Below, piece after piece: positions 8,275 to 56,815 of a stretch of DNA of 64,000 nt. The DNA comes from an uncultured Methanosarcinales archaeon (GTDB taxonomy: Archaea > Nanobdellota > Nanobdellia > Woesearchaeales > GW2011-AR9): the NCBI GenBank assembly GCA_964373955.1, contig CAYJXA010000001.1, positions 34,079 to 98,078 on the forward strand, in the 5' to 3' direction. How positions within the stretch are numbered: the stretch's first letter is position 1; each line of letters starts with the position of its first letter. Made by a program: the position numbers and the translations under genes. The notes beneath the pieces were generated by a model. That model saw only the letters and a program-made list of their open reading frames with translations, had not been told where the DNA came from and made no database searches.

Positions 8275-8376
8275 TGTAGTTTATCGTAATTTTCCCCCGC
8301 CCCAATTATCACTTCTAAGTAATTCAAAACCAAAAGATTTATATTTAATGGATATATTTTATATTAAAAATATAAA

Positions 8377-24636: not shown

Positions 24637-26045
24637 AAAGAGGAAGTGTTAGATAACTTACGTACGGTGCCTGTTTCAGCGTCCACTTCCACTATATCTC
24701 CATCTTTAAATGCGGTCGTAGCAATATGCGTTCCCACAAGGCAAGGGATTTTAAATTCTCTGCTGATAATCGCAGCATGTGATAACATTCCGCCTTCTTC
24801 TGTCACGATCGCTCCAGCCCTGCTGGCAATATCAACGATATTCGGTTGAGTCATTTGGGTTATAAGAATATCTCCTTTCTTAAACGTCATGCGCAGTTCA
24901 TTATTTTGTTGAATGTTATTTGACTGTAAAATTCTAGCTATTCCTCTACATTTCCCGGAATTAGCGACCATCCCCTTCACTTCATCATTTTCTTTTATTT
25001 CATAAAGATTTCCTAATTCTTTCTTAGCTACATCCTCGGCTTCATTACCGGAGATTAGAATCACTTTTCCCGCTTTTAAAAGTCCCACTACGCATTTCTT
25101 TCGGTTGTTTTTTTCTTCCGAGGACAGAAATTCATGTTTCAACAATAGCTTTTCTATCTCTGGTGAGAAGTAATATTTAGTAAGATCAGATATATTTTCT
25201 CCCGTCCTGCGGGCAATTTCCGCAAATAAAGGAATAGTATAAAATTCAGTGCCTGCCCAGCAAGACTTAACTTCCATTCTGGACATCGCCAATTGCTGTG
25301 CGCGATGCACCAAAATCTGTAATTCCGGCTTGGAGGAAAGGATTGCTTCCTGCTTTTGCTGCAATTCCTCTTTTTCCCGACGTATATCCTTCCATTTTTG
25401 GTGCACAGAATCATGAGCATATCGTTGAGAAAGCGTGCCTAGAACATCATTCATGGTGAAATGGCAGGCCACCAGCCAAGGGTATTTTTCCACGTGGGTT
25501 ATCATTCTTGATTCGGAATAGGGTTGTGGTAGTATTTCCTGCCATTCCAGCTGTTCTTGGTTTAATACATCCACGCCGACAGGAGTAAGTAACACGGAAA
25601 CGTCTTTATCCGTACAATGTTTTCGTATGGCTTCGAGCAAATAATGCATTCCCTCTACTTGAGTTGGCCGGAAATAACTAATGGTTAATTGCCATTGCTT
25701 CCTAGCCTCAAGAACAAGATCCATTAATTCCTGATCAGAAATGTTTTGCCAAGGAATATTCTTTAATGACGTAAAAAAAGCGCGATGTTCTGTGCAGCGC
25801 TGCTTCAAGTCCTGTAAGAATCTAGCAGAAAGATTCTCATCGAGGAAAATTTTTCCTCTTTCTTGGTCTTCCTGCAGATCCTCGCTGGAGTGAAAGGTAG
25901 AAATGCGATTATCTCGAGAGATTTGGATGATATTTTTAGCTTGGTTCCAAGGAAAAAAATGGGGAAATTCCAGAAAACAAAATAGATTCAGCTCAATAGT
26001 CCAATGGGCTTGATAATTTCCCCATAAATATTGATAGTGTGGCAT
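24633..26045 (-). CDS. helical domain plus PEP-utilizing swivel domain protein, paralog C
   Basis: C-terminus GDILITQMTQPNIVDIASRAGAIVTEEGGMLSHAAIISREFKIPCLVG. Confidence 0.7.
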   Translation of the reverse strand: MPHYQYLWGNYQAHWTIELNLFCFLEFPHFFPWNQAKNIIQISRDNRISTFHSSEDLQEDQERGKIFLDENLSARFLQDLKQRCTEHRAFFTSLKNIPWQNISDQELMDLVLEARKQWQLTISYFRPTQVEGMHYLLEAIRKHCTDKDVSVLLTPVGVDVLNQEQLEWQEILPQPYSESRMITHVEKYPWLVACHFTMNDVLGTLSQRYAHDSVHQKWKDIRREKEELQQKQEAILSSKPELQILVHRAQQLAMSRMEVKSCWAGTEFYTIPLFAEIARRTGENISDLTKYYFSPEIEKLLLKHEFLSSEEKNNRKKCVVGLLKAGKVILISGNEAEDVAKKELGNLYEIKENDEVKGMVANSGKCRGIARILQSNNIQQNNELRMTFKKGDILITQMTQPNIVDIASRAGAIVTEEGGMLSHAAIISREFKIPCLVGTHIATTAFKDGDIVEVDAETGTVRKLSNTSSL

Positions 26046-26051
26046 ACGTCC

Positions 26052-26711
26052 TTAACCTAGTAATTCTCTGACAGCTCTATCTACCGTTCTTGGAACTGCA
26101 ATCCGCAAATGATCTCGTGCAGCTCGATATTCCGGAAGCAATCTGCAGAAAGGATTTGGTACATCTCCTTCCATCCCAGCGTATTCATTGAGAAGGGCAA
26201 TAGTTGGAGTATACCCAGAACCAGCGTATATTTGTCGAACTTGGTCTAGATTAGCTTTTGCCATAGCTAAGACGACATGTTGATCATCACTTCCATGAAG
26301 CATTGTAGGCCGATGATATTCGCGAGTAGCAACCAAACCTGCTTCCATCAATACTTGATCTCGAAATATTGCCTCTGCGCGAACCACATAATCAAATAAT
26401 TCTTGCACTAACTCTGGATCAGTTCCATGGCCCTGACCCTCCGCTAAGACTGCGGCAGCCTGATCTCTTCTCCACGATTCTTGATACACTCCGTTTGCAG
26501 CCGCCATTCGTACTATTTGCAGTTGTGCTTGAGTTTTCTCAGCTCCTTCTCTGAGGAACATTGGATGTAATCCGCTTCCACTCGAACGAACTCGCACTCT
26601 GTCCGCTAAGCCTTGTCGATGAACGTAGTCAGTAGCGATTGCCTCTGCTTGAGGACTTCTGCCATTATTCCCGGTACATACATATTCTAACGTCAAAAAA
26701 TTTTCAGTCAT
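26052..26711 (-). CDS. LMW-PTP / ArsC-like protein (paralog 2)
   Basis: CTGNNGRSPQAEAIA is a CX5R P-loop. It is clearly paralogous to the ORF at 21609-22250. Confidence 0.65.
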   Translation of the reverse strand: MTENFLTLEYVCTGNNGRSPQAEAIATDYVHRQGLADRVRVRSSGSGLHPMFLREGAEKTQAQLQIVRMAAANGVYQESWRRDQAAAVLAEGQGHGTDPELVQELFDYVVRAEAIFRDQVLMEAGLVATREYHRPTMLHGSDDQHVVLAMAKANLDQVRQIYAGSGYTPTIALLNEYAGMEGDVPNPFCRLLPEYRAARDHLRIAVPRTVDRAVRELLG

Positions 26712-26713
26712 TT

Positions 26714-27505
26714 TTATTTTCCTCCTTGTTGCATTCTTTCCATCATCCTCTGCACTGCCTGATCATGCAAATAACCTGCTTGCGTTTCCGTTAATCTTTC
26801 CCTTCCCATCATCGCTGCGCTAACTGCAAGCATAAAGTTATTCATTGACTCTTGCATTTGCATATTGCGAACATGATTTGGAAGGGCCATTTCCGTGCAT
26901 GCTTTCTCTCCACATACCAATATCCCCGGGCTAAACCCTATAAATGTGGGCTCAGGATAGGTGAAATGTTTTCTCTCAACATCACCGCCAAGCTTATACG
27001 GAGGAACTTTCCCGCAAAAACCACACAATTCACCACGCTCATTATCATCTCCATCCAGTATAAACCTTTGGTTAACGATTACTAATCCCCCCCGTTGCCC
27101 TGGCGATAATCGAGCAATATCTTCCAGGGGAATTGTGCCAACTGTTCCTTTAGTAGTTTCATACTTGACACGACACCCATCTATTGGGGAGCCTTCTCCT
27201 CCAATCTCCGGAAGGTGATAGATTGGTCGAGGGGTAACTCCGTGCCTTTCTCTGTACTCTCGCAAAGATTGATTAAATTCTGGAAGCGCTCTACGAAGTT
27301 GAGCGATGATATATTCATCAGCCCATCTCTGTAGCCTATGTAGACCCCGCCCAGAGTAGCGTCTGGTGTCCCAACGATTATTCAAGTTGAGGACTCTTTT
27401 TCGCTTATCCAACACCATTTTATATTCAGGACTACACCAGAGAGCTGCATTTCGAGCCATCATCGCATCCAAAGTAGCATTCCCGGTAGGTTCGTCTTTA
27501 AACAT
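26714..27505 (-). CDS. hypothetical protein (first gene of cluster 1)
   Basis: 263 aa in the same orientation and tightly packed with the cluster; includes CGFCGK and CGEKAC Cys pairs. Confidence 0.45.
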   Translation of the reverse strand: MFKDEPTGNATLDAMMARNAALWCSPEYKMVLDKRKRVLNLNNRWDTRRYSGRGLHRLQRWADEYIIAQLRRALPEFNQSLREYRERHGVTPRPIYHLPEIGGEGSPIDGCRVKYETTKGTVGTIPLEDIARLSPGQRGGLVIVNQRFILDGDDNERGELCGFCGKVPPYKLGGDVERKHFTYPEPTFIGFSPGILVCGEKACTEMALPNHVRNMQMQESMNNFMLAVSAAMMGRERLTETQAGYLHDQAVQRMMERMQQGGK

Positions 27506-45643: not shown

Positions 45644-45870
45644 TTTTTATTACCCGCACCGTGTATATATGATCGTGAAAGCGTGCGGATATACTCTCCT
45701 TTTCACTCTCTGTGCTACGTAAATATGCGGTTTATTTAAAAGGTTTGCGGTGGGAAATGGGGAGATCATCTTTAAAATTGATTACGCATCACCGTAGAGA
45801 ACACCAAGTGAAGATAGTACTAAGAATTACCTTCGATACCTTTTTATATTTCTCCCTCCCCCATAAGGAT

Positions 45871-46230
45871 ATGAAAAAAGAGCTGGAACTAGTGAAAGAA
45901 TTTCATCTGAAATTTAAAGCGCCAGTGTTAGAAAAGCCTTCCCTTATTCCGGCAGACAGATCTGCGTTGCGGCATAATTTAATGAAAGATGAGGTTGCTG
46001 AATACAACGAGGGAGTGCAACAGCAAGATTTGGAAAATGTCGCCAAAGAATTAGCCGATATTTTATATGCTGTTTATGGAACCATTCTTGAGCACGGGTT
46101 GCAGGACAAGATGGAAGACGTTTTTGAAGAAGTGCATCGTTCCAATATGAGCAAAGATTACCACCAATATAAAATGGTCAAAGGCGCAGGATATTTTAAA
46201 GCGGATGTTAAGAAAGTGTTGGAGAAATAA
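45871..46230 (+). CDS. MazG-like nucleotide pyrophosphohydrolase
   Basis: EVAEYNEG...ENVAKELADILYAVYG is the MazG/HisE-type EExxE helix pair. Start taken at MKKELE; the start coordinate is within ±1 nt. Confidence 0.55.
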   Translation: MKKELELVKEFHLKFKAPVLEKPSLIPADRSALRHNLMKDEVAEYNEGVQQQDLENVAKELADILYAVYGTILEHGLQDKMEDVFEEVHRSNMSKDYHQYKMVKGAGYFKADVKKVLEK

Positions 46231-46347
46231 TGGTTGCATATCATCCGCTGACAAAAGGGGAACATCCATTTAGAGGCTATTTATTCAACACTTAATAGTA
46301 GTGAAATTATAGAAAGAATTATAAAGTTAGCCTCTCTCCTCGCTTCT

Positions 46348-46818
46348 ATGAACATCCGACTTCCCGATCGATACCAATTAAGAGATTATGCTACAGCTAT
46401 TATACCGCTAAGCTTACTTGGTTCCATGGCCTTTCTCATTGCTCAACTCGGATTAGCTTATATCCCTTCAACATTCTCAGAAGAGATCACCACTCAAAAT
46501 CGACTAGAACAAGTAGTGAGAGAAGAAGCAGAAGAATTGGGATTAGATTCTAATGATATTAAAGCGGAGTTTGGAAGTTGTCCGCAAGGAAGAGCCTGTT
46601 CCACCTCTTATATGGTTCGATTAGATGGAGATAGAACAAGGAATGCAGTGCAACATGAACTTTATCACATTTACAAAGATCATCACGATATGAAAGATCC
46701 GTTAGACTTAGAGGGATTCTTGAATCATCCCGTAGATCAAGCAGGATTATTTCTAAAAGGATTAGTTGTATGTGAAACCCAAGCTAATGTGTATGCTGCT
46801 TTCGGGATAAAATTATAA
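46348..46818 (+). CDS. small membrane-anchored protein with HExxH motif
   Basis: N-terminal TM helix; HELYHIYKDHHD motif. Confidence 0.4.
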   Translation: MNIRLPDRYQLRDYATAIIPLSLLGSMAFLIAQLGLAYIPSTFSEEITTQNRLEQVVREEAEELGLDSNDIKAEFGSCPQGRACSTSYMVRLDGDRTRNAVQHELYHIYKDHHDMKDPLDLEGFLNHPVDQAGLFLKGLVVCETQANVYAAFGIKL

Positions 46819-46824
46819 TGAGAG

Positions 46825-47298
46825 TTACACCCTAACTAATCTCTTCAAGTCTTCTAACACTTCCTTCGCATGTTCTGCCGGGTTAACGTGTTCATAGATT
46901 TTTACTATTTTTCCTTTCGGATTAACCAGAAAGGATGTCCTAAATGTTCCCAGATATTCTTTTCCCATAAACTTCTTTTTGCCCCATACTCCGTAGAGCT
47001 TTACTACTTTTTTGTCCTGATCAGATAGGAGAGTAAATGGAAGAGCGTATTTCTTCTTAAATTTCTGGTGGCTCTTGACGGAATCAACACTCACTCCTAG
47101 CACCATAGCATTACAGTTGGAAAATTCTTTCCAAGAATCACGCAAAGCACAGGCTTCAGCAGTGCAGCCGGGAGTATCATCTTTTGGATAAAAGTAAAGT
47201 AAAACCCATTTACTCTTATACTGAGAGAGTGCATGTTTCTTCCCAGATTGATCTGGAACGATAAAATCCGGAGCTTGCTGCTTTAGTTTTAATTTCAT
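46825..47298 (-). CDS. bcp: peroxiredoxin (Bcp/thiol peroxidase family)
   Basis: FYPKDDTPGCT is the peroxidatic cysteine motif. Confidence 0.9.
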   Translation of the reverse strand: MKLKLKQQAPDFIVPDQSGKKHALSQYKSKWVLLYFYPKDDTPGCTAEACALRDSWKEFSNCNAMVLGVSVDSVKSHQKFKKKYALPFTLLSDQDKKVVKLYGVWGKKKFMGKEYLGTFRTSFLVNPKGKIVKIYEHVNPAEHAKEVLEDLKRLVRV

Positions 47299-48023: not shown

Positions 48024-49154
48024 TTACTTTGCCATATTCCAAAGCAATTCAAAGTATTTTCGAAATGAGTGAGCTATCTCTTTGTTTTTAATAACAAAGG
48101 CCTGCGGATTTTTCGACCAAAGAATAAGTGCTACTTTTTCTCCATAAATACTTACCTCCGCCGGGCTCATGTAATCCGAACTTAAAGTTTTAATTTTAAT
48201 AGTGCTATATCGCTGGCAGGCTTTAATCTGGCGTACTGCCCTCTCATCAAAAATAACTCGCGTCTTCACTTTATTTTTCTGAAAGGGGATCATCACTTCC
48301 GCTTCAAAAAAATCCGTCCATTTATCCGAAGCAGGGGGAACCCCAAAGGCAAGATATTCCTGCCCTCCTTTCATCGTTCGAGCTATTTCAGAAAAAATTG
48401 CCTTAACATCATCAATACCCCTAAAAATAAGCGATTCCTGTTGCCAGAGAATATTAAAATGTTTGCGAAATGCTTCTGCCAATTTTCTATTTTCGATGAG
48501 GAGCGTCGTCAAACTTGGTTCCCAAATGACAATTTGAACTTTATCACCATAAGTCAAAGTAGAAGTAGGACTAAATAGTTCAGTAGGAAGAGGTTTGTAC
48601 TCTGTCTGTTGCGGATCAAAATAATATTCAGCATTTATCTTCGTCAGAATTCTCTCATGAATATTCTTTTCTTTCAAAAGACGCTGATATTGTTCGATAA
48701 AAACGGGCAACGCTTTTTTCCAGAGTCCGTCATCAATTCCAATTCCGAATATTTCTTTATTACCCTGTCCAGAAGTTCGGATACAATCAAGCATTACGGT
48801 CTTTAATCCTTCTTTCCCTTTGTATACTTCCACTTTTACTTCTTCCTTTCTGAAGGTAGTCAGGGCAGTTAATTCTGGAAGTATTTGTTGCAAATGCTCC
48901 TGTTTCTCTTGTAGGAATTCTACCAATTTTTGCGGTTCAGTGGCATTATAATATTTGACATTATTACGAACTACATAATTGATTAAGCCTTTATTGAGAA
49001 GCTTTTCTACGAAATCATAGATAGTAGTTCGGTGCAGATTAGTTTCTTCTTTAATGGCGCTTACGGGGCTTGAACCAAGTTTGAGTAGGGCTACATACAC
49101 CGCTATCTCTCCTTCAGATAAGCCTAATTCTGCTAAAACCGTACGTACGTCCAT
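48024..49154 (-). CDS. TrmB-family transcriptional regulator with extended C-terminal domain
   Basis: N-terminal wHTH (GEIAVYVALLKLGSSPVSAIKEETNLHRTTIYDFVEKLLNKGLI); transcribed divergently from cluster 2. Confidence 0.65.
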   Translation of the reverse strand: MDVRTVLAELGLSEGEIAVYVALLKLGSSPVSAIKEETNLHRTTIYDFVEKLLNKGLINYVVRNNVKYYNATEPQKLVEFLQEKQEHLQQILPELTALTTFRKEEVKVEVYKGKEGLKTVMLDCIRTSGQGNKEIFGIGIDDGLWKKALPVFIEQYQRLLKEKNIHERILTKINAEYYFDPQQTEYKPLPTELFSPTSTLTYGDKVQIVIWEPSLTTLLIENRKLAEAFRKHFNILWQQESLIFRGIDDVKAIFSEIARTMKGGQEYLAFGVPPASDKWTDFFEAEVMIPFQKNKVKTRVIFDERAVRQIKACQRYSTIKIKTLSSDYMSPAEVSIYGEKVALILWSKNPQAFVIKNKEIAHSFRKYFELLWNMAK

Positions 49155-49270
49155 GGTGGTAATGGTAGCAAAAGGGTATATAAAAGTTGCTGTCGTAAAA
49201 ACGACAACAAGAATTTAAGTACTAGCTATTGCTTGTCACTTTGTAGTGAGCAAATTATAATAGAGGTAAC

Positions 49271-50380
49271 ATGGCAGATACAAACGTAACAATTACACTA
49301 CGAGAATTGGACTTAGACCAAGAGATTGGCTTTGCTAAAGGTGGATGGTACTCCCCCACAGAGATTCTGCAGCGAGTTCAAGAGTTAGGAGTAGAAGAAG
49401 TTACCGCCGCGGCGGTAGATCGTGCAGCCCGGTATTATGATCTGGCAAGAGTTCATGAATTGCTCCACTGCCTTGATGTTGGTTTTGGAAGCGCAGAGTT
49501 AGTGCGGCAATTAGCCCATGATCCGCAAGCCCAACAAAAGATAGGCTACACCTTTCCACATCAAGAAGATAGCCTCCCTGAACAACAAGTTGCATTTCTC
49601 TCAGGCTTATTTCATGATATTATAGTAGGATATCAAGGGAATACCATTACTAAAACTAGCCCGGAAAGAGAAATTATTGGTTTTATTGCTCCAGCAGAAG
49701 AGAAAAAGGTGAAAGGTAAACCCCAGTATATCAAAGATGCTATTGGCGATGATTTACGGGGGGCAATACAATTATATTGGTGCGGACAAAGAATTCCTGC
49801 GTGGTTAGCAGTTCGGGCTGGTGACGAATTACTCGCCGGTTCTGATCTCAAAGTCCTTGGGGAACCAAAGAAATTACTCGGCCAATTCAGCCCCTACAAA
49901 ATTCTGGATGCAATTTGGTATCACGATGGAAACTACCCCCTTCGAGGATTTGCAGAAGCTGATGCAATTCTAGGAGACAGAGTACGACTCTACGAGCAGC
50001 AGCAAGTTCCATTAGAAGTAATTGGAGCAGGGATTCAAAAATTGTTAGGATACACTGAAGTTGATCCGCAATGGGAAGAACGAAGTACAAAACCTGATGC
50101 TGCTTATCTTGAGAAAATGGTTACTAAAAAAGCTGGCCCTTTCTTACAAGCAATCGCGGGAACTTCGACGTACGACTTTGTCAGAGAAGATCTTTCTTCT
50201 CGTGGACGGGGAAAAAGAACCCTTGTTAGTCCCGCATTTTGGAGAGGGGTAGATTTAATGCCAGTGGCCTTAGAACAAGCTCGAGCTGACAACGAGGTTA
50301 ATAATGCGTTCAGTCATGAATTAGCTACACTGCAACAAAGACTACAACACCTTGAACAATACCGAGGTAGCTCAGCATGA
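49271..50380 (+). CDS. hypothetical protein, first gene of cluster 2
   Basis: 369 aa; its stop overlaps the start of the following standalone swivel-domain ORF (ATGA). Confidence 0.5.
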   Translation: MADTNVTITLRELDLDQEIGFAKGGWYSPTEILQRVQELGVEEVTAAAVDRAARYYDLARVHELLHCLDVGFGSAELVRQLAHDPQAQQKIGYTFPHQEDSLPEQQVAFLSGLFHDIIVGYQGNTITKTSPEREIIGFIAPAEEKKVKGKPQYIKDAIGDDLRGAIQLYWCGQRIPAWLAVRAGDELLAGSDLKVLGEPKKLLGQFSPYKILDAIWYHDGNYPLRGFAEADAILGDRVRLYEQQQVPLEVIGAGIQKLLGYTEVDPQWEERSTKPDAAYLEKMVTKKAGPFLQAIAGTSTYDFVREDLSSRGRGKRTLVSPAFWRGVDLMPVALEQARADNEVNNAFSHELATLQQRLQHLEQYRGSSA

Positions 50381-50679
50381 TAACAGGAATATGTGTTTCA
50401 CCGGGAACAGCAGAAGGAATTATTCGCATCCATCAAGAAGGGAGAACGTACACGAAGGAAGATATTATTGTCTTACAACGATGGTTAACTCATGAAGTAC
50501 TCAGCCTCAAAAATGCCGGTGCTTTAATTTCGGCAGGGGGAGGCATTACCTGCCATGCTTCGATTATTGCGAGAGAATTAAAAATTCCCGCATTAGTTAG
50601 TGCAGACGTTTCCTCGTTACGCGAAGGACAGTGTGTTTTCATAAACACCATCGAAGAAAGTATCGAGGTACGAGCATGA
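50377..50679 (+). CDS. standalone PEP-utilizing-enzyme mobile (phosphohistidine swivel) domain protein
   Basis: GTAEGIIRI...EDIIVLQ...GALISAGGGITCHASIIARELKIPALV. The gene encodes only the 100-aa domain. Confidence 0.7.
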   Translation: MITGICVSPGTAEGIIRIHQEGRTYTKEDIIVLQRWLTHEVLSLKNAGALISAGGGITCHASIIARELKIPALVSADVSSLREGQCVFINTIEESIEVRA

Positions 50680-51644
50680 AGAAGTACGCCACCTTAGCTC
50701 GGCCTGCACCCAAGAATGAGATTTGGGAGCAAGAGATTGATGGACAAACGTACCTTTGCGAAAGACCACATTATACTTTAAAAAAATTAGAAGTAGAACT
50801 ACTAAAAGAATGCTTTGAAAGAGAATCACTAATGCTGTTCGGGAAAAAACTTCCCCTCTTCTTTGAAGGGAACGGGCGATGGTGGGCAGATCCAGAGATA
50901 TGCAGTGCAAAGCTAATGGAACGATGCATCAAGAACCCGCAGCTCTACATTAAAACCATGGCTCAGAAAGTTCAGGATGTTAAAGAAGTAATCCAAATTC
51001 TCCACGAGATTAATCAAAAGATAGAAGAAAAGAATCCAGCAATCCTGAGAGAACAATTTACAAAATTAGTTGAAGCCTACTTCCTTTTTTATTCGTATCA
51101 TTTCATCACGTTTGTCCTTTTTGATGAAATGGCGTTGAAGTTCAAGAACATCTTACAACAATTTCTAAGCAGAGGGGACGCTAACCAATATTTCACGGAG
51201 TTCCTTCAAGCAGAAATGACTGCTGAAGCAATACGAAGGGGAGCGGTTCAAGATGACACCGCCCAACAAAGTAGAGATTTATTTTATTCCGCATGCAAAC
51301 CAACTATTTTCTACAAAGAGCCAAAATTCTTTACGGAATATGCATATGATAATGAAATTATTGCTAAATTGTATGATTCTACTCCCTCCCCGTTAATAGT
51401 GCAAGAGTTTTTTGCCCTTCGTCTTCTCGTTCCGCTCGGATTCCAAATAAATGAAGAAGCGCAGTACATTGAGAGTAAAATGCTCTGCCCCATCATGAAA
51501 ATAATTCTGGAAAAAATCAGAATATTTTTGGTACAGCAAGGGTTGTTTGAGAAGGAAAAAGATATTCGAGAGCTGGGTGTAGAAGAAATCATCTCCAAAT
51601 TACAACAGAGTAAAAGAAAGCAGGAGGAATACCATGACCATTGA
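50676..51644 (+). CDS. helical domain protein homologous to the N-terminal domains of the swivel-fusion paralogs
   Basis: Start at MKKYATL, where the ATG overlaps the preceding stop. It has an aromatic/hydrophobic block followed by FDE (FYSYHFITFVLFDEMALKF), similar to paralogs A and D. Confidence 0.55.
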   Translation: MKKYATLARPAPKNEIWEQEIDGQTYLCERPHYTLKKLEVELLKECFERESLMLFGKKLPLFFEGNGRWWADPEICSAKLMERCIKNPQLYIKTMAQKVQDVKEVIQILHEINQKIEEKNPAILREQFTKLVEAYFLFYSYHFITFVLFDEMALKFKNILQQFLSRGDANQYFTEFLQAEMTAEAIRRGAVQDDTAQQSRDLFYSACKPTIFYKEPKFFTEYAYDNEIIAKLYDSTPSPLIVQEFFALRLLVPLGFQINEEAQYIESKMLCPIMKIILEKIRIFLVQQGLFEKEKDIRELGVEEIISKLQQSKRKQEEYHDH

Positions 51645-52272
51645 AAAAATTGCAGTTTTTGACGTTTTAGGTCCCATGTACCATTACGATGCCCGGGGAT
51701 GGATTGATGGAGCGATAGAACCACTCATAGAAAGGCTTCATCAACATGGATATACGGGAAAAAACATGGCTGAGGAGGCCCGAGATGAAGAAGATTTACA
51801 GCGAACGCAAAAAGAGCCAATCTTAATTATGCCGGGATTTGCAGAAACAGTGTTGTATCTTCGCCATCACCAAGTCCTCCCAGTGGTAGTATCCGCAGGA
51901 ACTCCCTGGGTGTTAGAAAATACGTTGAAATTAGCTGCCCGAGATTACCAGACGAGGACAGGAGACGACTGTAGGGCAGAGCAATTAGTTGCCTCTTCCG
52001 ATTTAATTAGCACTATTCCCTTTGGCAGTAAAAGAGATCCTGAAACTTGGAGGAAAGCAGTACAGCAATACGTAGGAGCAGAAGTGATAGCGATATATGA
52101 AGATACTTTTGCAAATCTTACTGCTGCCGCGGAAGGGTTAACTCCGCAAGTAGGCTATCATGTAACTTCTACACGGCATGGGCTTGCACGGCTTTGTCGG
52201 GATCAGAGAATTTACCGCGGCCATATGCTTGAAGCTTTAGAACATCTACAAAGAGAGGTAATATCAAAATAA
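51634..52272 (+). CDS. hypothetical protein
   Basis: 212 aa; overlaps the upstream gene. An IAVFDVLG segment resembles a degenerate HAD motif I. Confidence 0.4.
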   Translation: MTIEKIAVFDVLGPMYHYDARGWIDGAIEPLIERLHQHGYTGKNMAEEARDEEDLQRTQKEPILIMPGFAETVLYLRHHQVLPVVVSAGTPWVLENTLKLAARDYQTRTGDDCRAEQLVASSDLISTIPFGSKRDPETWRKAVQQYVGAEVIAIYEDTFANLTAAAEGLTPQVGYHVTSTRHGLARLCRDQRIYRGHMLEALEHLQREVISK

Positions 52273-52275
52273 ACT

Positions 52276-52632
52276 ATGAAAAAAATACTTCAAGGGTTGG
52301 GAGTAAGTAAGGGAAAAGCCAGAGGCATTGTTCGCATTATCACAAATGGACAGGATTATTCTCACTTTCAAGCTGGAGACATCCTTGTAACGAGGCTCAC
52401 GGATCCAACGATGGTGCCGGTGATGGGAAAAGCTGCTGGGATTATTTGTGAAATCGGTGGAATGACATCACACCCTTCTATTGTTAGTAGGGAACTTGGA
52501 ATTCCCTGTATTGTTGCTGTTGATAACGCTACAGAAATTCTCAAAGAAGGTGATCTGATTGAAATATGCGGGGAGACAGGAGAAATTAACCTCCTGGAAA
52601 ATAAATCGACATGGAGGCTACGATGGGGATAA
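52276..52632 (+). CDS. standalone PEP-utilizing swivel domain protein (second copy)
   Basis: GKARGIVRI...GDILVTRLTDPTMVPVMGKAAGIICEIGGMTSHPSIVSRELGIPCIVA. Confidence 0.7.
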   Translation: MKKILQGLGVSKGKARGIVRIITNGQDYSHFQAGDILVTRLTDPTMVPVMGKAAGIICEIGGMTSHPSIVSRELGIPCIVAVDNATEILKEGDLIEICGETGEINLLENKSTWRLRWG

Positions 52633-53654
52633 ATCATTTTATTGACACCATGCTAGAAGCTTTAGGGAGCATGGACCTCAGCACTCTTGAACCAATGAGT
52701 AATTTCATCTTTCACCCCCTTTTCGATAGGGAATGGATAGAAAGAATAGAAGAAGTGATGAGAAAAGTAGAAGAATACAACCTCCCCTTAGAACAAGCGG
52801 CCAAGCATATCAAAGGAATTGCACATCTTCGATGTCAACTATTCTTCTTACTCTTAGATTTAAAATCGGCAAACATCTCTATAGGGAGAAGGATGAAACT
52901 AGCCTCTTTCTTCCATGAACTACTCGAACTCAAAGCACAGGGAGATGTGTACGGTAAACAAAGTAATATTGCTCATAGTCCTGAAGAAGTAGAACTTATT
53001 TTACGAAAGCCATTTCAGCCGGCAACGGAAGAAATTGCCAGATTATTAGGAAGATTATACGCTGCAAGTTATCATTTGGTGAACGGGTTGTACACTGACT
53101 TCTATACTGATTATAGCGCTGAAAACATGGGAGCATATCCTTTGAGTGATGGCAGGATATTAGTTATAAAACATTTCGAAGATGTAAGACCTTCCCTGTT
53201 GTGGGATACGAAAACCCCCTGCAAGAGATTGACCATTTACTGTATTTATGAGCAAGTGAGATTCACCTGCGATGCCGTCTCCTGCCATAGCCGGTACGAA
53301 GGGGATCCCATTCGGGGATTAAAGAGTTATCTCGTTGAAGCAGATGAAATACCGATTAAGGACCTTCAGCAAATAGAAAAGATCAAAGGGGCAATAGAAT
53401 CCCTCGCTGTTGAGCAGTGGAAGAAACTCGTACAGCAAAATAAAGAAGAATTGAAACAAAAAGGGGTGTTCATGCGTTGTTATGTGTTTAAAGATTTATT
53501 TGAATTAGTGGGGATGGACTGGAGGCCTACTTCAGCTATGCTTGAAGCAGTCAAGGGAAAAGAATTAGCGATTAATTTCTGGAATCCACCTGTAGAGAAC
53601 CAACAGGAATACTGGAGAAGAATTCTTGATCCGGCAGAGGAAGTGTATAGGTAA
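52611..53654 (+). CDS. hypothetical protein
   Basis: 347 aa; overlaps the swivel ORF. Confidence 0.45.
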   Translation: MEATMGINHFIDTMLEALGSMDLSTLEPMSNFIFHPLFDREWIERIEEVMRKVEEYNLPLEQAAKHIKGIAHLRCQLFFLLLDLKSANISIGRRMKLASFFHELLELKAQGDVYGKQSNIAHSPEEVELILRKPFQPATEEIARLLGRLYAASYHLVNGLYTDFYTDYSAENMGAYPLSDGRILVIKHFEDVRPSLLWDTKTPCKRLTIYCIYEQVRFTCDAVSCHSRYEGDPIRGLKSYLVEADEIPIKDLQQIEKIKGAIESLAVEQWKKLVQQNKEELKQKGVFMRCYVFKDLFELVGMDWRPTSAMLEAVKGKELAINFWNPPVENQQEYWRRILDPAEEVYR

Positions 53655-53658
53655 GGAA

Positions 53659-54432
53659 ATGAGAGAACCATTACTAGAGGTAAGAGTGGATCAAAAAAGT
53701 TTTGGGAAATTACCCATCCTCCAGGAGGTTTATTTCACCATAGAAGAAGGGGAGTATGTTTCTCTCGTTGGGCCAAGCGGTTGTGGGAAAACCACCTTAC
53801 TCCGCTTAATTGCAGGATTAGAGAATGACTTTCAAGGAGAAATTACGGTCAATGGCCATCCCCCCATAGTGGGCTACGACACGAGAATGATGTTTCAAGA
53901 ATCAAGATTATTTCCCTGGCTTTCCGCACGGGAAAACATTGAGCTTGGACTTCAGAAACACCCGTTACCGGTGTATCAAAGGGGGTTAGGAAAGAAATCA
54001 TTATCAGATCCACGAGTAGATGCTTTATTGAAGAAGAGTGGATTGGAACCATTTGCGGGTTACATGCCCGGGCAACTCTCCGGAGGAATGCAGCAGAGGA
54101 TAGCTCTTTTAAGAGCGTTAATAAGTACACCAAAATTACTCCTTCTGGATGAGCCTTTCAGCAAGTTGGATTATCTTACTGCCCTGCCTTTACAAGAAGA
54201 AGTAAGCGATTTGGTGCGAGGAGTGGGAGTAACTGCATTTATGATTACGCATAACATTGAAGAGGCGGTATATCTTAGTGATAGGATACTCTTGCTTTCT
54301 TCAAGGCCAGCAACAATAGTAAGAGCATACGATATTAAACTTCCACAGCCACGAGAAAGAATGAGCGATGAAATACAAACATATGTAAGAGAAATCTTGC
54401 GACAGGTACAGGGAGAGATGAGAACTTCATAA
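53659..54432 (+). CDS. ABC transporter ATP-binding protein (NitT/TauT-type, SsuB/TauB-like) with no adjacent permease
   Basis: Walker A GPSGCGKTT, signature LSGGMQQR, Walker B LLLLDEPFS, and H-loop ITHN. Confidence 0.85.
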   Translation: MREPLLEVRVDQKSFGKLPILQEVYFTIEEGEYVSLVGPSGCGKTTLLRLIAGLENDFQGEITVNGHPPIVGYDTRMMFQESRLFPWLSARENIELGLQKHPLPVYQRGLGKKSLSDPRVDALLKKSGLEPFAGYMPGQLSGGMQQRIALLRALISTPKLLLLDEPFSKLDYLTALPLQEEVSDLVRGVGVTAFMITHNIEEAVYLSDRILLLSSRPATIVRAYDIKLPQPRERMSDEIQTYVREILRQVQGEMRTS

Positions 54433-54434
54433 AC

Positions 54435-55178
54435 CTACTTTTTCGCTTTATTCCAAATAATCTGAAAGAATTTTGCATAAGAATTTGCAGTTGATTTCTC
54501 TTCGATCAGAAATCCATACGGTTTATCTAACCAAATAATAATAGCAACTTTACTCCCACAAATAATAGTTTCAGTTAATTCCTCAAACTTCTCCGGCGTA
54601 TATCGTACTTCTGTCAACTTCTTTCTACTTAACTCTTTTCCCCAGTATTGAAGCTGGGGATGAAACAATAGTTTTCCTCTAATACCTTTGTTAATTCTAT
54701 GATTGTGAAAACTCTCCCAAAAATAGTCCCCCAGTAATTCATTTGCTTTTTTAGGGCCTCCATAGGCACAATAATTTTTAGAGGAAGTATCAAGCATCAG
54801 ACGAAGAAGTTCTTTTATTCCCCGAATCCCTTGAAAAAGTATTGCTTTGGGCTTTTCCTGGGCAAATTTCTGCTTTGCTTCTAATTCCGGGATGATCTTT
54901 TGAAGACGTTCTTTCTTTTCTTCGATAAACCCTAGCAATTGCCGGGGAGAAACCCCTTGATATGTTCTCATTTTCCCTTCCAGAACCGAGGTAACCAGCC
55001 CTTTTTCAGCTAAAGAATGAAAAGCCCGATGGACCACTGCATTTTGCAAGCCTGATTTTTCTACCACTTTACCAGCAGCAGAAGAGCCAAGTTCTAAAAG
55101 AGTAAGAAATACTTTAATTTCCGCACCGGTAAGTCCTAAATCTTCAAGGATGGAAGTGTCCATAGGATATGGGTACAT
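54435..55178 (-). CDS. TrmB-family transcriptional regulator
   Basis: wHTH GAEIKVFLTLLELGSSAAGKVVEKSGLQNAVVHRAFHSLAEKGLV. Confidence 0.65.
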   Translation of the reverse strand: MYPYPMDTSILEDLGLTGAEIKVFLTLLELGSSAAGKVVEKSGLQNAVVHRAFHSLAEKGLVTSVLEGKMRTYQGVSPRQLLGFIEEKKERLQKIIPELEAKQKFAQEKPKAILFQGIRGIKELLRLMLDTSSKNYCAYGGPKKANELLGDYFWESFHNHRINKGIRGKLLFHPQLQYWGKELSRKKLTEVRYTPEKFEELTETIICGSKVAIIIWLDKPYGFLIEEKSTANSYAKFFQIIWNKAKK

Positions 55179-55318
55179 ATCATTAGGTCCATTTAAATCT
55201 TTCTAGTATAGTCACAATTGTGATTACAAAGTATTAAATAGCCACCCCCTCCCCATAAAAGGCATTTTCAGAAAAAAAGCTAATTTAAAGCGAGAGAGGG
55301 TATGGAATTAAAAAAATC

Positions 55319-56815
55319 ATGAAAACCAAAGAAATTGTCCAGCATCTGCAAGGCAAAAAATGGCGCAAGCGGGGAACATGGCCGCATTACATTATTAGCA
55401 GCGAAATATTCGGGGAAGGGGAAACCGCATCCTACTGCCAACGATTAGGATATCCGTTCAAGCGCACCTTAGGAATTTGGTACAAAGAAGACTGGTTTGA
55501 CCCGGAAGAAGAATGGGAGGCTATTGGTGCCATCGTTACCTCAGAATACAAAAAAGATCCTGCCTATTTATGGAAATATGGACAACATTGCCTTCAACTT
55601 GGAGAAGAGACTATCCGAAGAACAAAAGAATTAGGGGAGATTGATCCTGCAACGATATCAAATGAGGAGTTAGGGCATAGATACAGGGAGGCAATTACGG
55701 AAATCAAGGGATACATGCCCTTCATGTTTAGCCTGCATCTTTTTGACAAATTCCTCACGGAAAAGTTTGAAGAATTGTTGAGTGCATTTATTCGAGAAGA
55801 GAAGCTTCCAAAAGAAGACTATTTCAAGTATCAAACGGCTTTAACACTCCCAAATAGGAAAATCTTTGTCTTACAGGAGAAAGTTGATCTAATGAAAATA
55901 GCTCTCCTTGCCAAAAAGAAGAAGGAAGGGATTAAGGATAAAGCCATCCAGAAAAAAATGGAAGAGCATACGGCACAATATGGTTGGATCAATATGGCTT
56001 ACTTAGAAGCACTTCCTCATGATAAAACTTATTTCCACCAAAAAGTACAGGCATTGTTAGAAACAGATGTAGAAAATGAGTACAATCAAATCGCAAGTTA
56101 TGAGAAAAAGCTCATTCGAGAAAGAGAAGAGTACATGAACAAGATACAGAGAGGGGAATTACATACCATTTGCAAGGCTATCCAATTATTTGGATTTCTG
56201 CGATCATTCCGCTTGGATACAGCATACATTGCATATTATAACTGCTGGAAAGTTATCCAAGAAATTGAGAAGAGGCTTCACCTGCCCGTGTTTGACATTC
56301 GGTACCTCGATTCAAAAGAAGTTTCTTTTGCTCTCCAAAACCCTAAAGAAAAAGGATACTTACACCTAATTCAGGAACGAAAAAGAGGAGTACTGTCCAT
56401 AATGATCGAGGACACGCGTCTTGAAATTACAGGAGAGGAGATAGAAGCTATTACACGAGAGATTACCTTTCCAAAGGAAATTCTTTCAGCAGCCATTAAA
56501 GGGACTACTGCTTACCCCGGGAGGATCATAGGACCATGCAAAGTGCTTCATCGTCTGGAGGATATGCAAAAAATGTGCGTAGGAGATATCCTCGTGATTG
56601 CGATGACTGACCCCAATTATATTCCGGCGATGGAAAAAGCAGCAGCTTTTGTGACGGATCAAGGAGGGATTCTCTGCCATGCTGCTATTGTCAGCAGGGA
56701 AATGAAAAAGCCCTGTATTATTGGAACAAAATCAGCAACTAAATCATTCAAAGACAAGGATATACTAGAAGTAAACGCTGATGAAGGGATAGTAAGAAAA
56801 ATCGATGAGAAATAA
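55319..56815 (+). CDS. helical domain plus C-terminal PEP-utilizing swivel domain protein, paralog D
   Basis: C-terminus GDILVIAMTDPNYIPAMEKAAAFVTDQGGILCHAAIVSREMKKPCIIG. Confidence 0.7.
   Translation: MKTKEIVQHLQGKKWRKRGTWPHYIISSEIFGEGETASYCQRLGYPFKRTLGIWYKEDWFDPEEEWEAIGAIVTSEYKKDPAYLWKYGQHCLQLGEETIRRTKELGEIDPATISNEELGHRYREAITEIKGYMPFMFSLHLFDKFLTEKFEELLSAFIREEKLPKEDYFKYQTALTLPNRKIFVLQEKVDLMKIALLAKKKKEGIKDKAIQKKMEEHTAQYGWINMAYLEALPHDKTYFHQKVQALLETDVENEYNQIASYEKKLIREREEYMNKIQRGELHTICKAIQLFGFLRSFRLDTAYIAYYNCWKVIQEIEKRLHLPVFDIRYLDSKEVSFALQNPKEKGYLHLIQERKRGVLSIMIEDTRLEITGEEIEAITREITFPKEILSAAIKGTTAYPGRIIGPCKVLHRLEDMQKMCVGDILVIAMTDPNYIPAMEKAAAFVTDQGGILCHAAIVSREMKKPCIIGTKSATKSFKDKDILEVNADEGIVRKIDEK

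What the first reader, a model, noticed from the sequence alone, without database searches (positions are those of the whole stretch)
49271..56815. Second swivel-domain cluster with split or permuted domain architecture, orphan ABC ATPase and TrmB regulators, interrupting the psmA-SBDS-exosome superoperon
On the plus strand there are two standalone 100-118-aa swivel-domain ORFs (50377-50679 and 52276-52632). Each is overlapped or flanked by 212-369-aa ORFs. The 322-aa ORF right after the first swivel ORF shares an aromatic block followed by FDE/IDE with the N-terminal domains of the fused paralogs A and D. The same two-domain unit therefore occurs fused (cluster 1 and the ORF at 55319-56815) and also split with the swivel domain encoded first, a circular-permutation-like arrangement. 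The cluster also carries an ABC ATPase without a permease and is bracketed by TrmB-family regulators (48024-49154 and 54435-55178). Pop5-psmA (56.8-57.9 kb) is thereby separated from SBDS-...-Rrp4-41-42 (43.4-48.0 kb), a neighbourhood that is contiguous in most archaea.
Basis: partly seen in the sequence, partly recalled or inferred. Interest (0 to 1): 0.85.

Follow-up and report, generated by a model that had tools for sequence, protein, structure and literature searches.

The report
TrmB-controlled split phosphohistidine-swivel enzyme cassette
This is a real, conserved gene cassette of tiny DPANN archaea in which two free-standing phosphate-carrying "swivel" proteins sit between three unrelated partner proteins (one with a phosphodiesterase-type fold, one related to the substrate domain of known swivel kinases, one with no recognisable fold), so it looks like a new multi-subunit version of a known family of phosphate-transfer enzymes that lacks their usual ATP-binding part.

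Summary

Comparative genomics shows two modules: A = G1|swivelA|G3 and B = (G4)|swivelB|G6. Neighbouring parts are found fused as G3-swB, swB-G6, G3-swB-G6, G3-G6 and swB-swA. The array is therefore colinear with variable gene fission, not a simple circular permutation, although swivel-first pairs do exist.

A divergent TrmB gene and a conserved palindromic operator between two TATA boxes accompany the cassette almost everywhere. The ABC ATPase is not conserved. No ATP-grasp domain was found in the ORFs scanned in the window or in the precomputed annotation of five related loci. The cassette occupies the same exosome–psmA slot in two relatives and lies elsewhere in others.

Verdict: a new variant of the His-swivel phosphotransferase/dikinase kind. 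Substrate and phosphoryl donor are unknown.

The parts
48024..49154 (-). G0: long TrmB-family regulator (376 aa), divergently transcribed from the cassette
   Evidence: PF01978 at E 9.8e-16. A TrmB gene sits divergently upstream of the cassette in nearly all related archaeal loci. It is 86-90% identical to the TrmB of L020 and L022.
49177..49221 (.). Divergent promoter/operator: TATATAAAA (49177-49185), palindrome GTTGCTGTCGT-AAAA-ACGACAACAA (49186-49210, core 49191-49206), TTTAAGTA (49214-49221)
   Evidence: The core motif TGTCGKAAANNCGACA occurs once in the window, against 0.03 expected. It occurs exactly once in 18 of 35 fetched loci. For the loci whose intergenic sequence was examined it lies in the TrmB-operon intergenic region.
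49271..50380 (+). G1: 369-aa HD/phosphodiesterase-fold protein, always followed by swivel A
50377..50679 (+). G2 = swivel A: standalone phosphohistidine carrier (100 aa), motif SAGGGITCH with His60
   Evidence: PF00391 at E 3e-13. It forms a distinct subfamily that follows G1 directly in six of the seven distinct G1-bearing loci; in L006 it is the C-terminal half of a swB-swA fusion encoded right after G1.
50676..51644 (+). G3: 322-aa helical domain homologous to the N-domains of the fused swivel paralogs
   Evidence: hhalign of A4 against A5 gives E 2e-6 over 290 columns, with negative controls. Relatives are fused to swivel B and/or G6.
51634..52272 (+). G4: 212-aa HAD-like protein (motifs FDVLGP / VVSAGT / GSKRD / YEDT; the Asp+2 position is Leu)
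   Evidence: PF00702 is sub-threshold in the window copy (E 0.0017). Five of six family members hit it, best E 3.5e-5. Alignment. The trio G4|swB|G6 occurs without G1/swA/G3 in L010, L012, L013, L015 and L020.
52276..52632 (+). G5 = swivel B: standalone phosphohistidine carrier (118 aa), motif IGGMTSH with His66
   Evidence: PF00391 at E 2.8e-26. It lies directly upstream of G6 or is fused to it in every G6 locus that holds upstream sequence except L030, and in L003/L004 it is fused to the C-terminus of G3.
52623..53654 (+). G6: 343-347-aa protein with no recognisable fold (start 52623 is favoured by a GGAGG; 52611 is also possible)
53659..54432 (+). G7: ABC-type ATPase (nucleotide-binding domain only), an accessory gene specific to this genome
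   Evidence: PF00005 at E 1.7e-31. The best NCBIfam models are importer-type NBDs. It is absent after G6 in all related loci.
54435..55178 (-). G8: short TrmB-family regulator (247 aa), divergent from G9
   Evidence: PF01978 at E 5.7e-12. 29% identical to G0. A short TrmB also follows G6 in L006-L008.
55212..55223 (.). Perfect palindrome TCACAATTGTGA in the G8-G9 intergenic region (candidate operator, different from the G0 operator)
   Evidence: Conservation was not tested.
55319..56815 (+). G9: 498-aa fused N-domain + C-terminal swivel (type C) paralog
   Evidence: PF00391 at E 4.5e-23. NCBIfam alignments to PigC/RedH start at residue 234 and to RPH-like models at about 326. The A5 profile aligns to RPH-Lm residues 554-862.

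Best explanation
The region encodes a TrmB-regulated, multi-subunit phosphohistidine 'swivel' phosphotransfer enzyme system built from two modules.

Module B (swivel B + G6, often with the HAD-like G4) is the most widespread unit. Module A is G1 (HD/phosphodiesterase fold) + swivel A + G3.

Shown:
- Both small ORFs are intact swivel domains with the catalytic His.
- G3 is homologous to the helical N-domains of the fused swivel paralogs. Those paralogs have the domain order of the substrate-binding + His-domain component of RPH/HpeH/PpsA-type small-molecule dikinases.
- Neighbouring parts are fused in relatives in the order G3-swB-G6, which marks them as parts of one enzyme.
- The long TrmB gene and a conserved palindrome between two divergent TATA boxes travel with the cassette.

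Inferred:
- Swivel B (His66) is charged at one partner and swings or diffuses to the other, as in PEPS/PPDK/RPH.
- G6, which takes the place and size of the missing ATP-grasp component and is never separated from swivel B, is the phosphoryl-donor-binding partner.
- G3 binds the small-molecule acceptor.
- Swivel A (His60) shuttles between G3 and the metal-dependent G1 site, which transfers or hydrolyses a phosphoryl or pyrophosphoryl group.
- G4 takes or removes the phosphate of the product.
- TrmB binds the palindrome and controls its own promoter and the operon promoter, probably in response to a sugar-type effector.

The ABC ATPase is a lineage-specific add-on.
For: Domains and catalytic motif:
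- Swivel domains and the His motif.
- The T/SxxGGxxxH motif is described for this family in PMC12167813.

Not pseudogenes:
- The same split ORFs recur in L002, L016, L022/23 and others at 44-78% identity.

Fusions among the partners:
- G3-swB: P0003-10.
- swB-G6: P0036/38/42 and L028.
- G3-swB-G6: P0060 and P0065.
- G3-G6: P0055-57.
- swB-swA: L006 p210.
- Sources.

Partner identities:
- G3 is homologous to the fused N-domains, with negative controls.
- The fused paralog profile aligns to RPH-Lm from residue 554, inside the RIF-binding domain, through the swivel. PEPS and PPDK match only the swivel (domain limits from PMC4844700).
- G1 has the HD/PDE fold plus an HxxxH...HD...D pattern.
- G4 is HAD-like.
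- G6 gives a confident model with no PDB match.

Missing ATP-grasp:
- No PPDK_N/ATP-grasp was found in any of the 38 window ORFs scanned.
- None appears in the precomputed Pfam annotations of the related loci.

Regulation:
- The operator is conserved in 18 loci.

Precedent:
- Two-component dikinases are a known split precedent (PMC12167813).
Against: - No donor, acceptor or activity is known.
- The roles of G6 as donor site and of G1 are inference from position, not from any detected nucleotide-binding motif.
- G3 itself has no predicted structure here.
- Its link to the RIF-binding domain is transitive. An N-domain-only profile does not retrieve RPH, and G3-family members do not hit RPH-type NCBIfam models.
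- An ATP-grasp partner could be encoded elsewhere in the genome. Only 64 kb of a contig of at least 298 kb was seen.
- About half of the swB|G6 loci have no G3-like domain nearby, so G6 and swivel B must also be able to work with something else.
Confidence: 0.5

Rival explanations
1. Classical two-component small-molecule dikinase (HpeHI/PpsAB type). An ATP-grasp subunit encoded elsewhere in the genome charges the swivels. G3 plus a swivel is the HpeH-like component. G1 (phosphodiesterase), G4 (phosphatase) and G6 are downstream pathway enzymes that act on the phosphorylated metabolite and are not partners of the swivel.
For: - The fused paralogs and G3 have the HpeH/RPH C-terminal-half architecture.
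- Two-component versions are established.
- Only part of the genome was visible.
- Phosphatase-type genes also accompany the other swivel paralogs: LMW-PTP and an HD-like gene in cluster 1, and a metallophosphoesterase-like p274 in L006.
Against: - Swivel B is physically fused to G6 in several lineages, and G3-swB-G6 and G3-G6 fusions exist. That is expected for domains of one enzyme, not for successive pathway steps.
- The swB|G6 pair occurs alone, without any G3-like domain, in Micrarchaeota and a Paceibacterota bacterium.
- No PPDK_N lies within about 10 kb in any annotated related locus.
- Two distinct dedicated swivels are not needed in this model.
Confidence: 0.2
2. The cluster is a set of circularly permuted or split copies of the same two-domain unit (helical domain + swivel) found in cluster 1. 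Each small swivel ORF pairs with the ORF downstream of it, and all four large ORFs are N-domain homologues.
For: - G3 is an N-domain homologue.
- Swivel-first fusions exist: swB-G6, and about 20 distant SW-G3-like proteins.
Against: - G1, G4 and G6 show no relation to the N-domain (E >= 0.04 over <= 68 columns), and the two that were modelled, G1 and G6, fold differently.
- The close relatives of G3 are fused to the downstream swivel B in canonical order.
- The swivel of the distant SW-G3-like proteins cannot be typed as swivel A.
Confidence: 0.1
3. A protein-directed regulatory phosphorelay or atypical protein kinase (compare VadK, a PPDK-derived kinase). Its free swivel proteins act like HPr-type carriers that modify cellular targets, perhaps linked to the neighbouring RNA or protein turnover machinery.
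For: - The small free-standing carriers resemble PTS logic.
- Several phosphatase families are associated with the system.
- A PPDK-derived protein kinase is known (abstract of PMC13400623).
- The cassette lies inside the exosome/proteasome neighbourhood in three genomes.
Against: - The cassette lies in unrelated neighbourhoods in most other genomes, so the exosome link is positional only.
- TrmB regulators are typically sugar-responsive (own knowledge).
- The G3-type domains resemble small-molecule-binding domains.
Confidence: 0.1
4. The small swivel ORFs are fragments of frameshifted pseudogenes or assembly errors.
For: Fused versions of G3+swivel and swivel+G6 exist in other genomes.
Against: - The split layout with intact ORFs, overlapping start and stop codons and SD-like sites is conserved across independent assemblies at 44-78% protein identity.
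- G2 and G5 keep all swivel motifs.
- G4 lies between G3 and G5 as an independent conserved family.
Confidence: 0.01

Closest known systems
Two-component small-molecule dikinases HpeHI / CreHI / PpsAB (phenylphosphate synthase) (PMC12167813)
   Same: - The enzyme is split into separate polypeptides.
- One component is a helical substrate-binding domain followed by a His swivel, as in the fused paralogs and in G3-swB fusions.
- The conserved GGxxxH motif is present.
- The swivel is proposed to travel between two spatially separate sites.
   Different: - Those systems have one swivel and an ATP-grasp partner (HpeI/PpsB).
- Here there are two distinct swivels, often as free 100-118-aa proteins.
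- No ATP-grasp was found.
- The partners have HD/PDE, HAD-like and unmatched folds.
- The system is archaeal DPANN, not aromatic catabolism.
Rifampin phosphotransferase RPH and the wider RPH/PigC/RedH-type dikinase family (PMC4844700)
   Same: - The domain order is substrate-binding domain then C-terminal swivel.
- The profile of the fused paralogs aligns to RPH-Lm residues 554-862.
- G9 aligns to PigC 612-880.
   Different: - RPH is a single chain with an N-terminal ATP-grasp domain (residues 1-314).
- The similarity of the N-domain outside the region next to the swivel is not independently significant.
PEP synthase / pyruvate phosphate dikinase
   Same: - The swivel lies between two catalytic domains (G3-swB-G6 fusions mimic N-swivel-C).
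- These are the best sequence matches for the swivel domains.
   Different: Neither the PPDK_N ATP-grasp domain nor the PEP-utilizers_C TIM barrel is present.
PTS Enzyme I / HPr phosphorelay
   Same: It uses a swivel-type phospho-His domain and small free-standing phosphocarrier proteins that pass phosphate between larger components.
   Different: No EI C-terminal PEP-binding domain, HPr, EIIA, EIIB or EIIC was found. The carriers here are swivel domains themselves.
HD superfamily / class I cyclic-nucleotide phosphodiesterases (for G1)
   Same: - The conserved HxxxH...HD...D pattern is present.
   Different: - There is no sequence-level Pfam hit.
- G1 is always paired with a dedicated swivel protein. 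I know of no described HD or PDE enzyme with that pairing, and the literature searches found none.
TrmB-family sugar-responsive regulators of archaea
   Same: - An N-terminal TrmB HTH domain.
- Divergent arrangement with the regulated operon.
- A palindromic site between the promoters.
   Different: The operator GTTGTCG-N5/6-CGACAAC and the regulated genes are not those of the described TrmB/TrmBL1/Tgr regulons (own knowledge). The effector is unknown.

Membership tests
PEP-utilising enzyme mobile (swivel) domain, PF00391 | Match to the Pfam model above the gathering score | tested here: met
   G2 scores 49.6 bits, G5 91.4 bits and G9 81.1 bits against a cut-off of 23.1.
PEP-utilising enzyme mobile (swivel) domain, PF00391 | Catalytic His in the T/S-x-x-G-G-x-x-x-H loop | tested here: met
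   G2 has SAGGGITCH (His60). G5 has CEIGGMTSH (His66; the first position is Cys, or Thr in P0003). The His is conserved in all swivel A and swivel B members aligned. The motif is as described in PMC12167813.
RPH / HpeH / PpsA-type small-molecule dikinase | Substrate-binding domain homologous to the RIF-binding domain, followed by the swivel | tested here: inconclusive
   The order N-domain then swivel is met. The A5 profile aligns to RPH-Lm 554-862 and G9 aligns to PigC 612-880, but these scores are dominated by the swivel. The N-domain-only profile A7 does not retrieve RPH. The G3 family does not hit RPH-type NCBIfam models. G3 is linked only through the fused paralogs.
RPH / HpeH / PpsA-type small-molecule dikinase | ATP-grasp (PPDK_N) domain in the same chain or in an adjacent partner gene | tested here: not met
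   There was no PF01326 hit in any of the 38 window ORFs scanned. None is listed in the annotated related loci. The rest of the genome was not visible.
RPH / HpeH / PpsA-type small-molecule dikinase | Dikinase chemistry (ATP gives AMP + Pi + phospho-substrate through pyrophospho-His) | not testable with these tools
   This needs biochemistry.
PEP synthase / PPDK | PPDK_N nucleotide-binding domain and PEP-utilizers_C TIM-barrel domain | tested here: not met
   Only the swivel region matches. All NCBIfam scores are far below the cut-offs, for example 110.6 against 598. Pfam finds neither domain.
HD / PDEase superfamily (G1) | All-helical HD/PDE catalytic fold | tested here: met
   [not shown]
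HD / PDEase superfamily (G1) | Metal-binding H...HD...D residues | tested here: inconclusive
   Invariant H62, H66, H115-D116, D156/D161 and H218-D219 fit the pattern. Their superposition on the PDE metal site could not be inspected. No Pfam HD or PDEase hit was found.
HAD superfamily (G4) | Match to HAD models and the four HAD motifs | tested here: inconclusive
   The window copy is below the cut-off (19.2 against 26.4 bits). Five of six members hit PF00702, best E 3.5e-5. Motifs I-IV are recognisable, but the Asp+2 residue is Leu. No PDB hit was found by profile.
ABC transporter (G7) | Nucleotide-binding domain together with a cognate permease | tested here: not met
   The NBD is present. 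No permease gene lies in the operon. The gene is not conserved next to the cassette in any relative.
Archaeal exosome-proteasome superoperon | Contiguous Pop5-psmA-(SBDS)-Rrp4-Rrp41-Rrp42 array | tested here: not met
   The genes are present and co-oriented. However, they are separated by 48024-56815 (the cassette) and by 45712-47298 (a MazG-like gene, an ORF of unknown function and a Prx gene). The same slot is occupied in L020 and L023. SBDS is placed in the superoperon by PMC2695463.
Circular permutation of the N-domain/swivel unit | Homologous domains found in both orders within single polypeptides | tested here: inconclusive
   Both G3-SW (P0058, P0062, P0066 and others) and SW-G3-like (P0080, P0101, P0104 and others) fusions exist. 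The swivel-first forms are distant, and their swivel cannot be assigned to type A. The close relatives of the window's G3 use the canonical order.

The most novel reading that the evidence does not exclude
G6 is a previously unseen fold that replaces the ATP-grasp domain as the phosphoryl (or pyrophosphoryl) donor site of a swivel enzyme. Swivel A and swivel B are free phosphocarrier proteins of a PTS-like relay found mainly in DPANN archaea, with one Paceibacterota (CPR) locus. The relay acts on a pentose-phosphate or nucleotide-type metabolite. The hints for that substrate class are PRPP synthetase, a phosphoribosyltransferase and RpiB next to minimal swB|G6 modules in L032, L017 and L015, HAD and histidine-phosphatase neighbours, and a sugar-type TrmB regulator.
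Probability: 0.25. Interest if true: 0.85.

Novelty: new variant of a known kind. Interest (0 to 1): 0.65.

Why it matters
Swivel (phosphohistidine) enzymes are textbook examples of long-range domain motion, and so far nearly all known members draw on an ATP-grasp or a PEP-binding barrel. This cassette would add three things. First, obligately free-standing swivel proteins. Second, two different swivels in one system. Third, new partner folds: an HD/PDE-type domain and a domain with no PDB match, in place of the ATP-grasp.

It is found mainly in genome-reduced DPANN archaea, plus one CPR bacterium. A large share of the genes of such organisms still has no assigned function, so it is a defined, testable entry point into their phosphate and sugar-phosphate metabolism.

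The strictly conserved TrmB gene, palindrome and twin TATA boxes also give a clean, experimentally tractable archaeal regulatory unit.

Tried and rejected
- BLAST of G1, G3 and G6 against the window found nothing.
- Thin-profile hhalign of G3 against single N-domains was not significant (E >= 0.14). It became significant only with the 36-sequence profile.
- Single-sequence and profile searches of G1, G3, G4 and G6 against PDB sequences found nothing.
- The N-domain-only profile did not retrieve RPH from the PDB.
- G3-family members scanned against NCBIfam showed no RPH-type hits.
- The AFDB50 fold library was unavailable.
- A metagenome scan with the G9 N-domain found no relatives.
- PADLOC gave no defence-system hits except the generic ABC ATPase, so a defence island was rejected.
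- The pseudogene or frameshift idea was rejected on conservation.
- My intermediate idea that G4 is a mere insertion between G3 and its swivel was rejected, because G4|swB|G6 exists without G3.
- The ABC ATPase as energy source of the system was rejected, because it is absent in all relatives.
- A functional link to the exosome or proteasome was rejected as positional only.

Full report
**1. What is in the sequence**

The plus strand between 49271 and 54432 carries seven tightly packed ORFs:
- G1, 49271-50380, 369 aa
- G2, 50377-50679, 100 aa
- G3, 50676-51644, 322 aa
- G4, 51634-52272, 212 aa
- G5, 52276-52632, 118 aa
- G6, 52611/52623-53654, 347/343 aa
- G7, 53626/53659-54432

Junctions:
- G1/G2 and G2/G3 overlap as ATGA.
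- G3/G4 overlap by 11 nt.
- G4/G5 are 3 nt apart.
- G5/G6 overlap by 10 nt if G6 starts at 52623.
- G6/G7 are 4 nt apart.
- GAGGT/GGAGG motifs precede most starts.

Pfam results:
- G2 (E 3e-13) and G5 (E 2.8e-26) are PEP-utilising-enzyme mobile 'swivel' domains.
- G7 is an ABC ATPase domain.
- 48024-49154 (G0) and 54435-55178 (G8) are TrmB regulators.
- G9 (55319-56815) has a C-terminal swivel.
- G1, G3 and G6 have no hit, and G4 has only a weak HAD hit.

Three further N-domain+swivel paralogs (470, 361 and 435 aa) lie at 22247-26045 between dnaK/grpE and dnaJ. Two low-molecular-weight phosphatase-like genes sit with them.

**2. The swivel ORFs are functional-looking genes, not fragments**

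G2 carries SAGGGITCH (His60) and G5 carries IGGMTSH (His66). Both fit the T/SxxGGxxxH loop described for this domain (PMC12167813).

The same split gene order recurs in independent assemblies:
- L002, a Woesearchaeota MAG, with 44-52% protein identity.
- L022/L023, with 75-78% identity.
- L016/L027.

That excludes a frameshift artefact.

**3. Which large ORFs are related to the fused paralogs**

BLAST and thin profiles found nothing. A profile search of 1.84 billion representative proteins with the G3 family gave only 78 relatives.

A 36-sequence G3 profile (A4) was then compared with an alignment of six fused paralogs (A5). The result was Prob 89.5, E 2e-6, over 290 colinear columns (G3 17-322 against G9 2-357).

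The same test for G1, G4 and G6 against either profile gave E >= 0.04 over at most 68 columns. Only G3 is therefore an N-domain homologue.

The fused-paralog profile aligns to rifampin phosphotransferase from residue 554, inside the RIF-binding domain (327-754), through the swivel (767-865). PEPS and PPDK match only around the swivel (domain limits from PMC4844700). G9 aligns to PigC 612-880.

This link is only suggestive. An N-domain-only profile does not retrieve RPH, and G3-family members do not hit RPH-type NCBIfam models.

**4. What the other ORFs are**

*G4.* The family has recognisable HAD motifs (FDVLGP, VVSAGT, GSKKD, YEDT), with Leu at the Asp+2 position. Five of six members hit PF00702, best E 3.5e-5.

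**5. Comparative anatomy**

I annotated 35 fetched loci with family HMMs. The survey drew on the contexts returned. It shows two modules.

Module B is swivel B followed by G6.
- It occurs alone in L014/L026, in L018 and L017 (Micrarchaeota), and in L019/L034 (a Paceibacterota bacterium, duplicated in tandem).
- It occurs with G4 in front in L010, L012, L013, L015, L020 and L029.
- It occurs fused as swB-G6 in P0036, P0038, P0042 and L028.

Module A is G1, swivel A, G3.
- It precedes module B in the window, L002, L003, L004, L006, L016 and L022.
- It occurs without module B in L024. There G3 is fused to a further N-domain + swivel unit (P0054).

Fusions between neighbouring parts:
- G3-swB (P0003-P0010, P0058, P0062, P0066)
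- G3-swB-G6 (P0060, 797 aa; P0065, 789 aa)
- G3-G6 (P0055-57)
- swB-swA (L006 p210)
- About 20 distant swivel-first SW-G3-like proteins. One of these lies in a bacterial radical-SAM cluster (L009).

This pattern is what one expects for domains of one enzyme that is cut at different places in different lineages. The order G3-swivel-G6 mirrors the N-swivel-C layout of PEPS/PPDK.

It is not right for the window's G3, whose nearest fused relatives use the downstream swivel.

**6. Regulation**

A TrmB gene is divergently transcribed from the cassette in nearly all archaeal loci.

The intergenic region holds a palindrome, core TGTCGKAAANNCGACA and extended GTTGYTGTCG-N5/6-CGACAAC. It is flanked on both sides by TATA boxes.

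The core occurs once in the window, at 49191-49206, against 0.03 expected. It occurs exactly once in 18 of the 35 loci. Where the intergenic sequence was examined it is at that place, whether the first operon gene is G1, G4 or swivel B.

G0 is 86-90% identical to the TrmB of L020 and L022, although G6 is only 59% identical to its L020 counterpart. The TrmB gene and its operator are therefore integral parts of the unit.

**7. What is not part of it**

The ABC ATPase G7 is absent downstream of G6 in every relative. That includes the 78%-identical L022, where an unrelated gene follows.

No PPDK_N ATP-grasp domain and no PEP-binding barrel was found in any of the 38 window ORFs scanned. None is listed in the annotated related loci. 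PADLOC finds no defence system.

**8. Genomic position**

In the window the cassette, together with G8 and G9, separates SBDS from psmA-Pop5. A second small insert at 45712-47298 (a MazG/PRA-PH-like gene, an unknown ORF and a Prx gene) separates Rrp4 from SBDS. SBDS belongs to the predicted exosome superoperon (PMC2695463).

The same slot is used in two relatives:
- L020 has Rrp42-Rrp41-Rrp4 | TrmB | G4-swB-G6 | psmA-Pop5.
- L023 has Prx-SBDS-TrmB | G1....

Elsewhere the cassette lies in unrelated neighbourhoods. One example is next to NFACT and an ABC-2 transporter in L003, L024 and L002. The interruption is real and lineage-conserved, but it gives no evidence of a functional link.

**9. Mechanism (inference)**

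By analogy with PEPS/PPDK/RPH and the two-component dikinases HpeHI/PpsAB, the swivel His picks up a phosphoryl or pyrophosphoryl group at one site and delivers it at another.

I propose these roles:
- G6 is never separated from swivel B and takes the place of the missing ATP-grasp subunit. It is the donor-binding site.
- G3 is the acceptor-binding site.
- Swivel A links G3 to the metal site of G1.
- G4 acts on the product.

Weak context hints point to pentose-phosphate or nucleotide substrates:
- PRPP synthetase two genes upstream of swB in L032.
- A phosphoribosyltransferase overlapping swB in L017.
- RpiB overlapping G6 in L015.
- A borderline histidine-phosphatase hit in L019.
- Nucleoside-salvage genes near L024.

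The main rival is that a trans-encoded ATP-grasp charges the swivels and that G1, G4 and G6 are pathway enzymes. The fusions argue against it, but it cannot be excluded without whole genomes.

**10. Novelty**

Three literature searches were run, one of them on the exosome superoperon. The two on swivel domains found RPH, HpeHI, PPDK, GWD and VadK but nothing on this cassette. Database names, where present, are 'hypothetical protein' or 'phosphohistidine swiveling domain-containing protein'.

The swivel domain and the N-domain+swivel architecture are known. New here are two dedicated free swivels, the HD/PDE, HAD-like and unmatched-fold partners, the absence of an ATP-grasp in everything scanned, and the conserved TrmB operator. 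I rate it a new variant of a known kind.

Noticed in passing
window 20986-27505 (minus strand): The grpE-dnaK ... dnaJ chaperone operon is interrupted by seven genes. They are a 263-aa unknown, an LMW-phosphatase-like gene (26052-26711), three N-domain+swivel paralogs (470, 361 and 435 aa), a second LMW-phosphatase-like gene (21609-22250) and a 208-aa protein with an HD-like 'LLHDF' motif. Like the cassette, this cluster pairs swivel proteins with phosphatase-type folds.
   Followed up: partly
window 49177-49221; L002, L003, L006-8, L010, L012, L014-16, L020-24, L026-28: A palindrome, GTTGYTGTCG-N5/6-CGACAAC, sits between two divergent TATA boxes. It is strictly conserved in the TrmB-operon intergenic region of loci whose enzymes share only about 40-60% identity. 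It is a ready-made archaeal operator/regulator pair.
   Followed up: yes
window 48024-49154 versus L020:7733-8902 and L022:624-1760: The TrmB regulator is 86-90% identical between genomes in which the adjacent G6 is only 59% identical, and L020 lacks G1-swA-G3 altogether. The regulator is far more conserved than the enzymes it sits next to.
   Followed up: partly
window 55212-55223: A perfect palindrome, TCACAATTGTGA, lies between the short TrmB (G8) and G9. It differs from the G0 operator. A GTCAC...GTGA element also occurs at about 49231-49246.
   Followed up: no
window 45712-47298: A second small insert in the superoperon lies between Rrp4 and SBDS. It holds a MazG/PRA-PH-like pyrophosphohydrolase (PF01503, E 2.6e-16), a 156-aa unknown with an HExxH-like 'HELYH' motif, and a peroxiredoxin-like gene.
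   Followed up: partly
L032:4577-11558; L017:3038-3658; L015:8105-8713; L019:5425-6318: Minimal swB|G6 modules sit next to PRPP synthetase, a phosphoribosyltransferase, RpiB and a borderline histidine-phosphatase-family gene. In L032 they are followed by two N-domain+swivel paralogs. This is a weak hint at pentose-phosphate or nucleotide chemistry.
   Followed up: partly
P0100 (863 aa); P0048 (595 aa): Two unusual fusions. P0100 is a G3-like domain followed by a cytidylyltransferase-like (PF01467) region. P0048 is a G6 domain followed by about 230 residues with an HD-like 'GHH' motif.
   Followed up: no
L009:3232-7309: A distant swivel-first SW-G3-like protein (P0104) lies in a bacterial-looking cluster with a B12-binding radical SAM enzyme, a metallo-beta-lactamase-fold protein, a methyltransferase and a LytTR two-component system. 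The G3-type domain is therefore not confined to archaea.
   Followed up: no
P0085 (103 aa fragment): The first 40 residues of a swivel-A-type domain run directly into the N-terminus of a G3-type domain, and the His loop is missing. It is either a deletion chimera or an assembly artefact.
   Followed up: no
window 4922-11014 (minus strand): Three large ORFs (574, 543 and 582 aa) have no family assignment, apart from a weak aminoglycoside/choline-kinase-type (APH) hit in the 582-aa protein. Next to them, on the plus strand at 8377-9276, is a protein whose N-terminus weakly matches the MazE/AbrB-type fold (PF04014).
   Followed up: no
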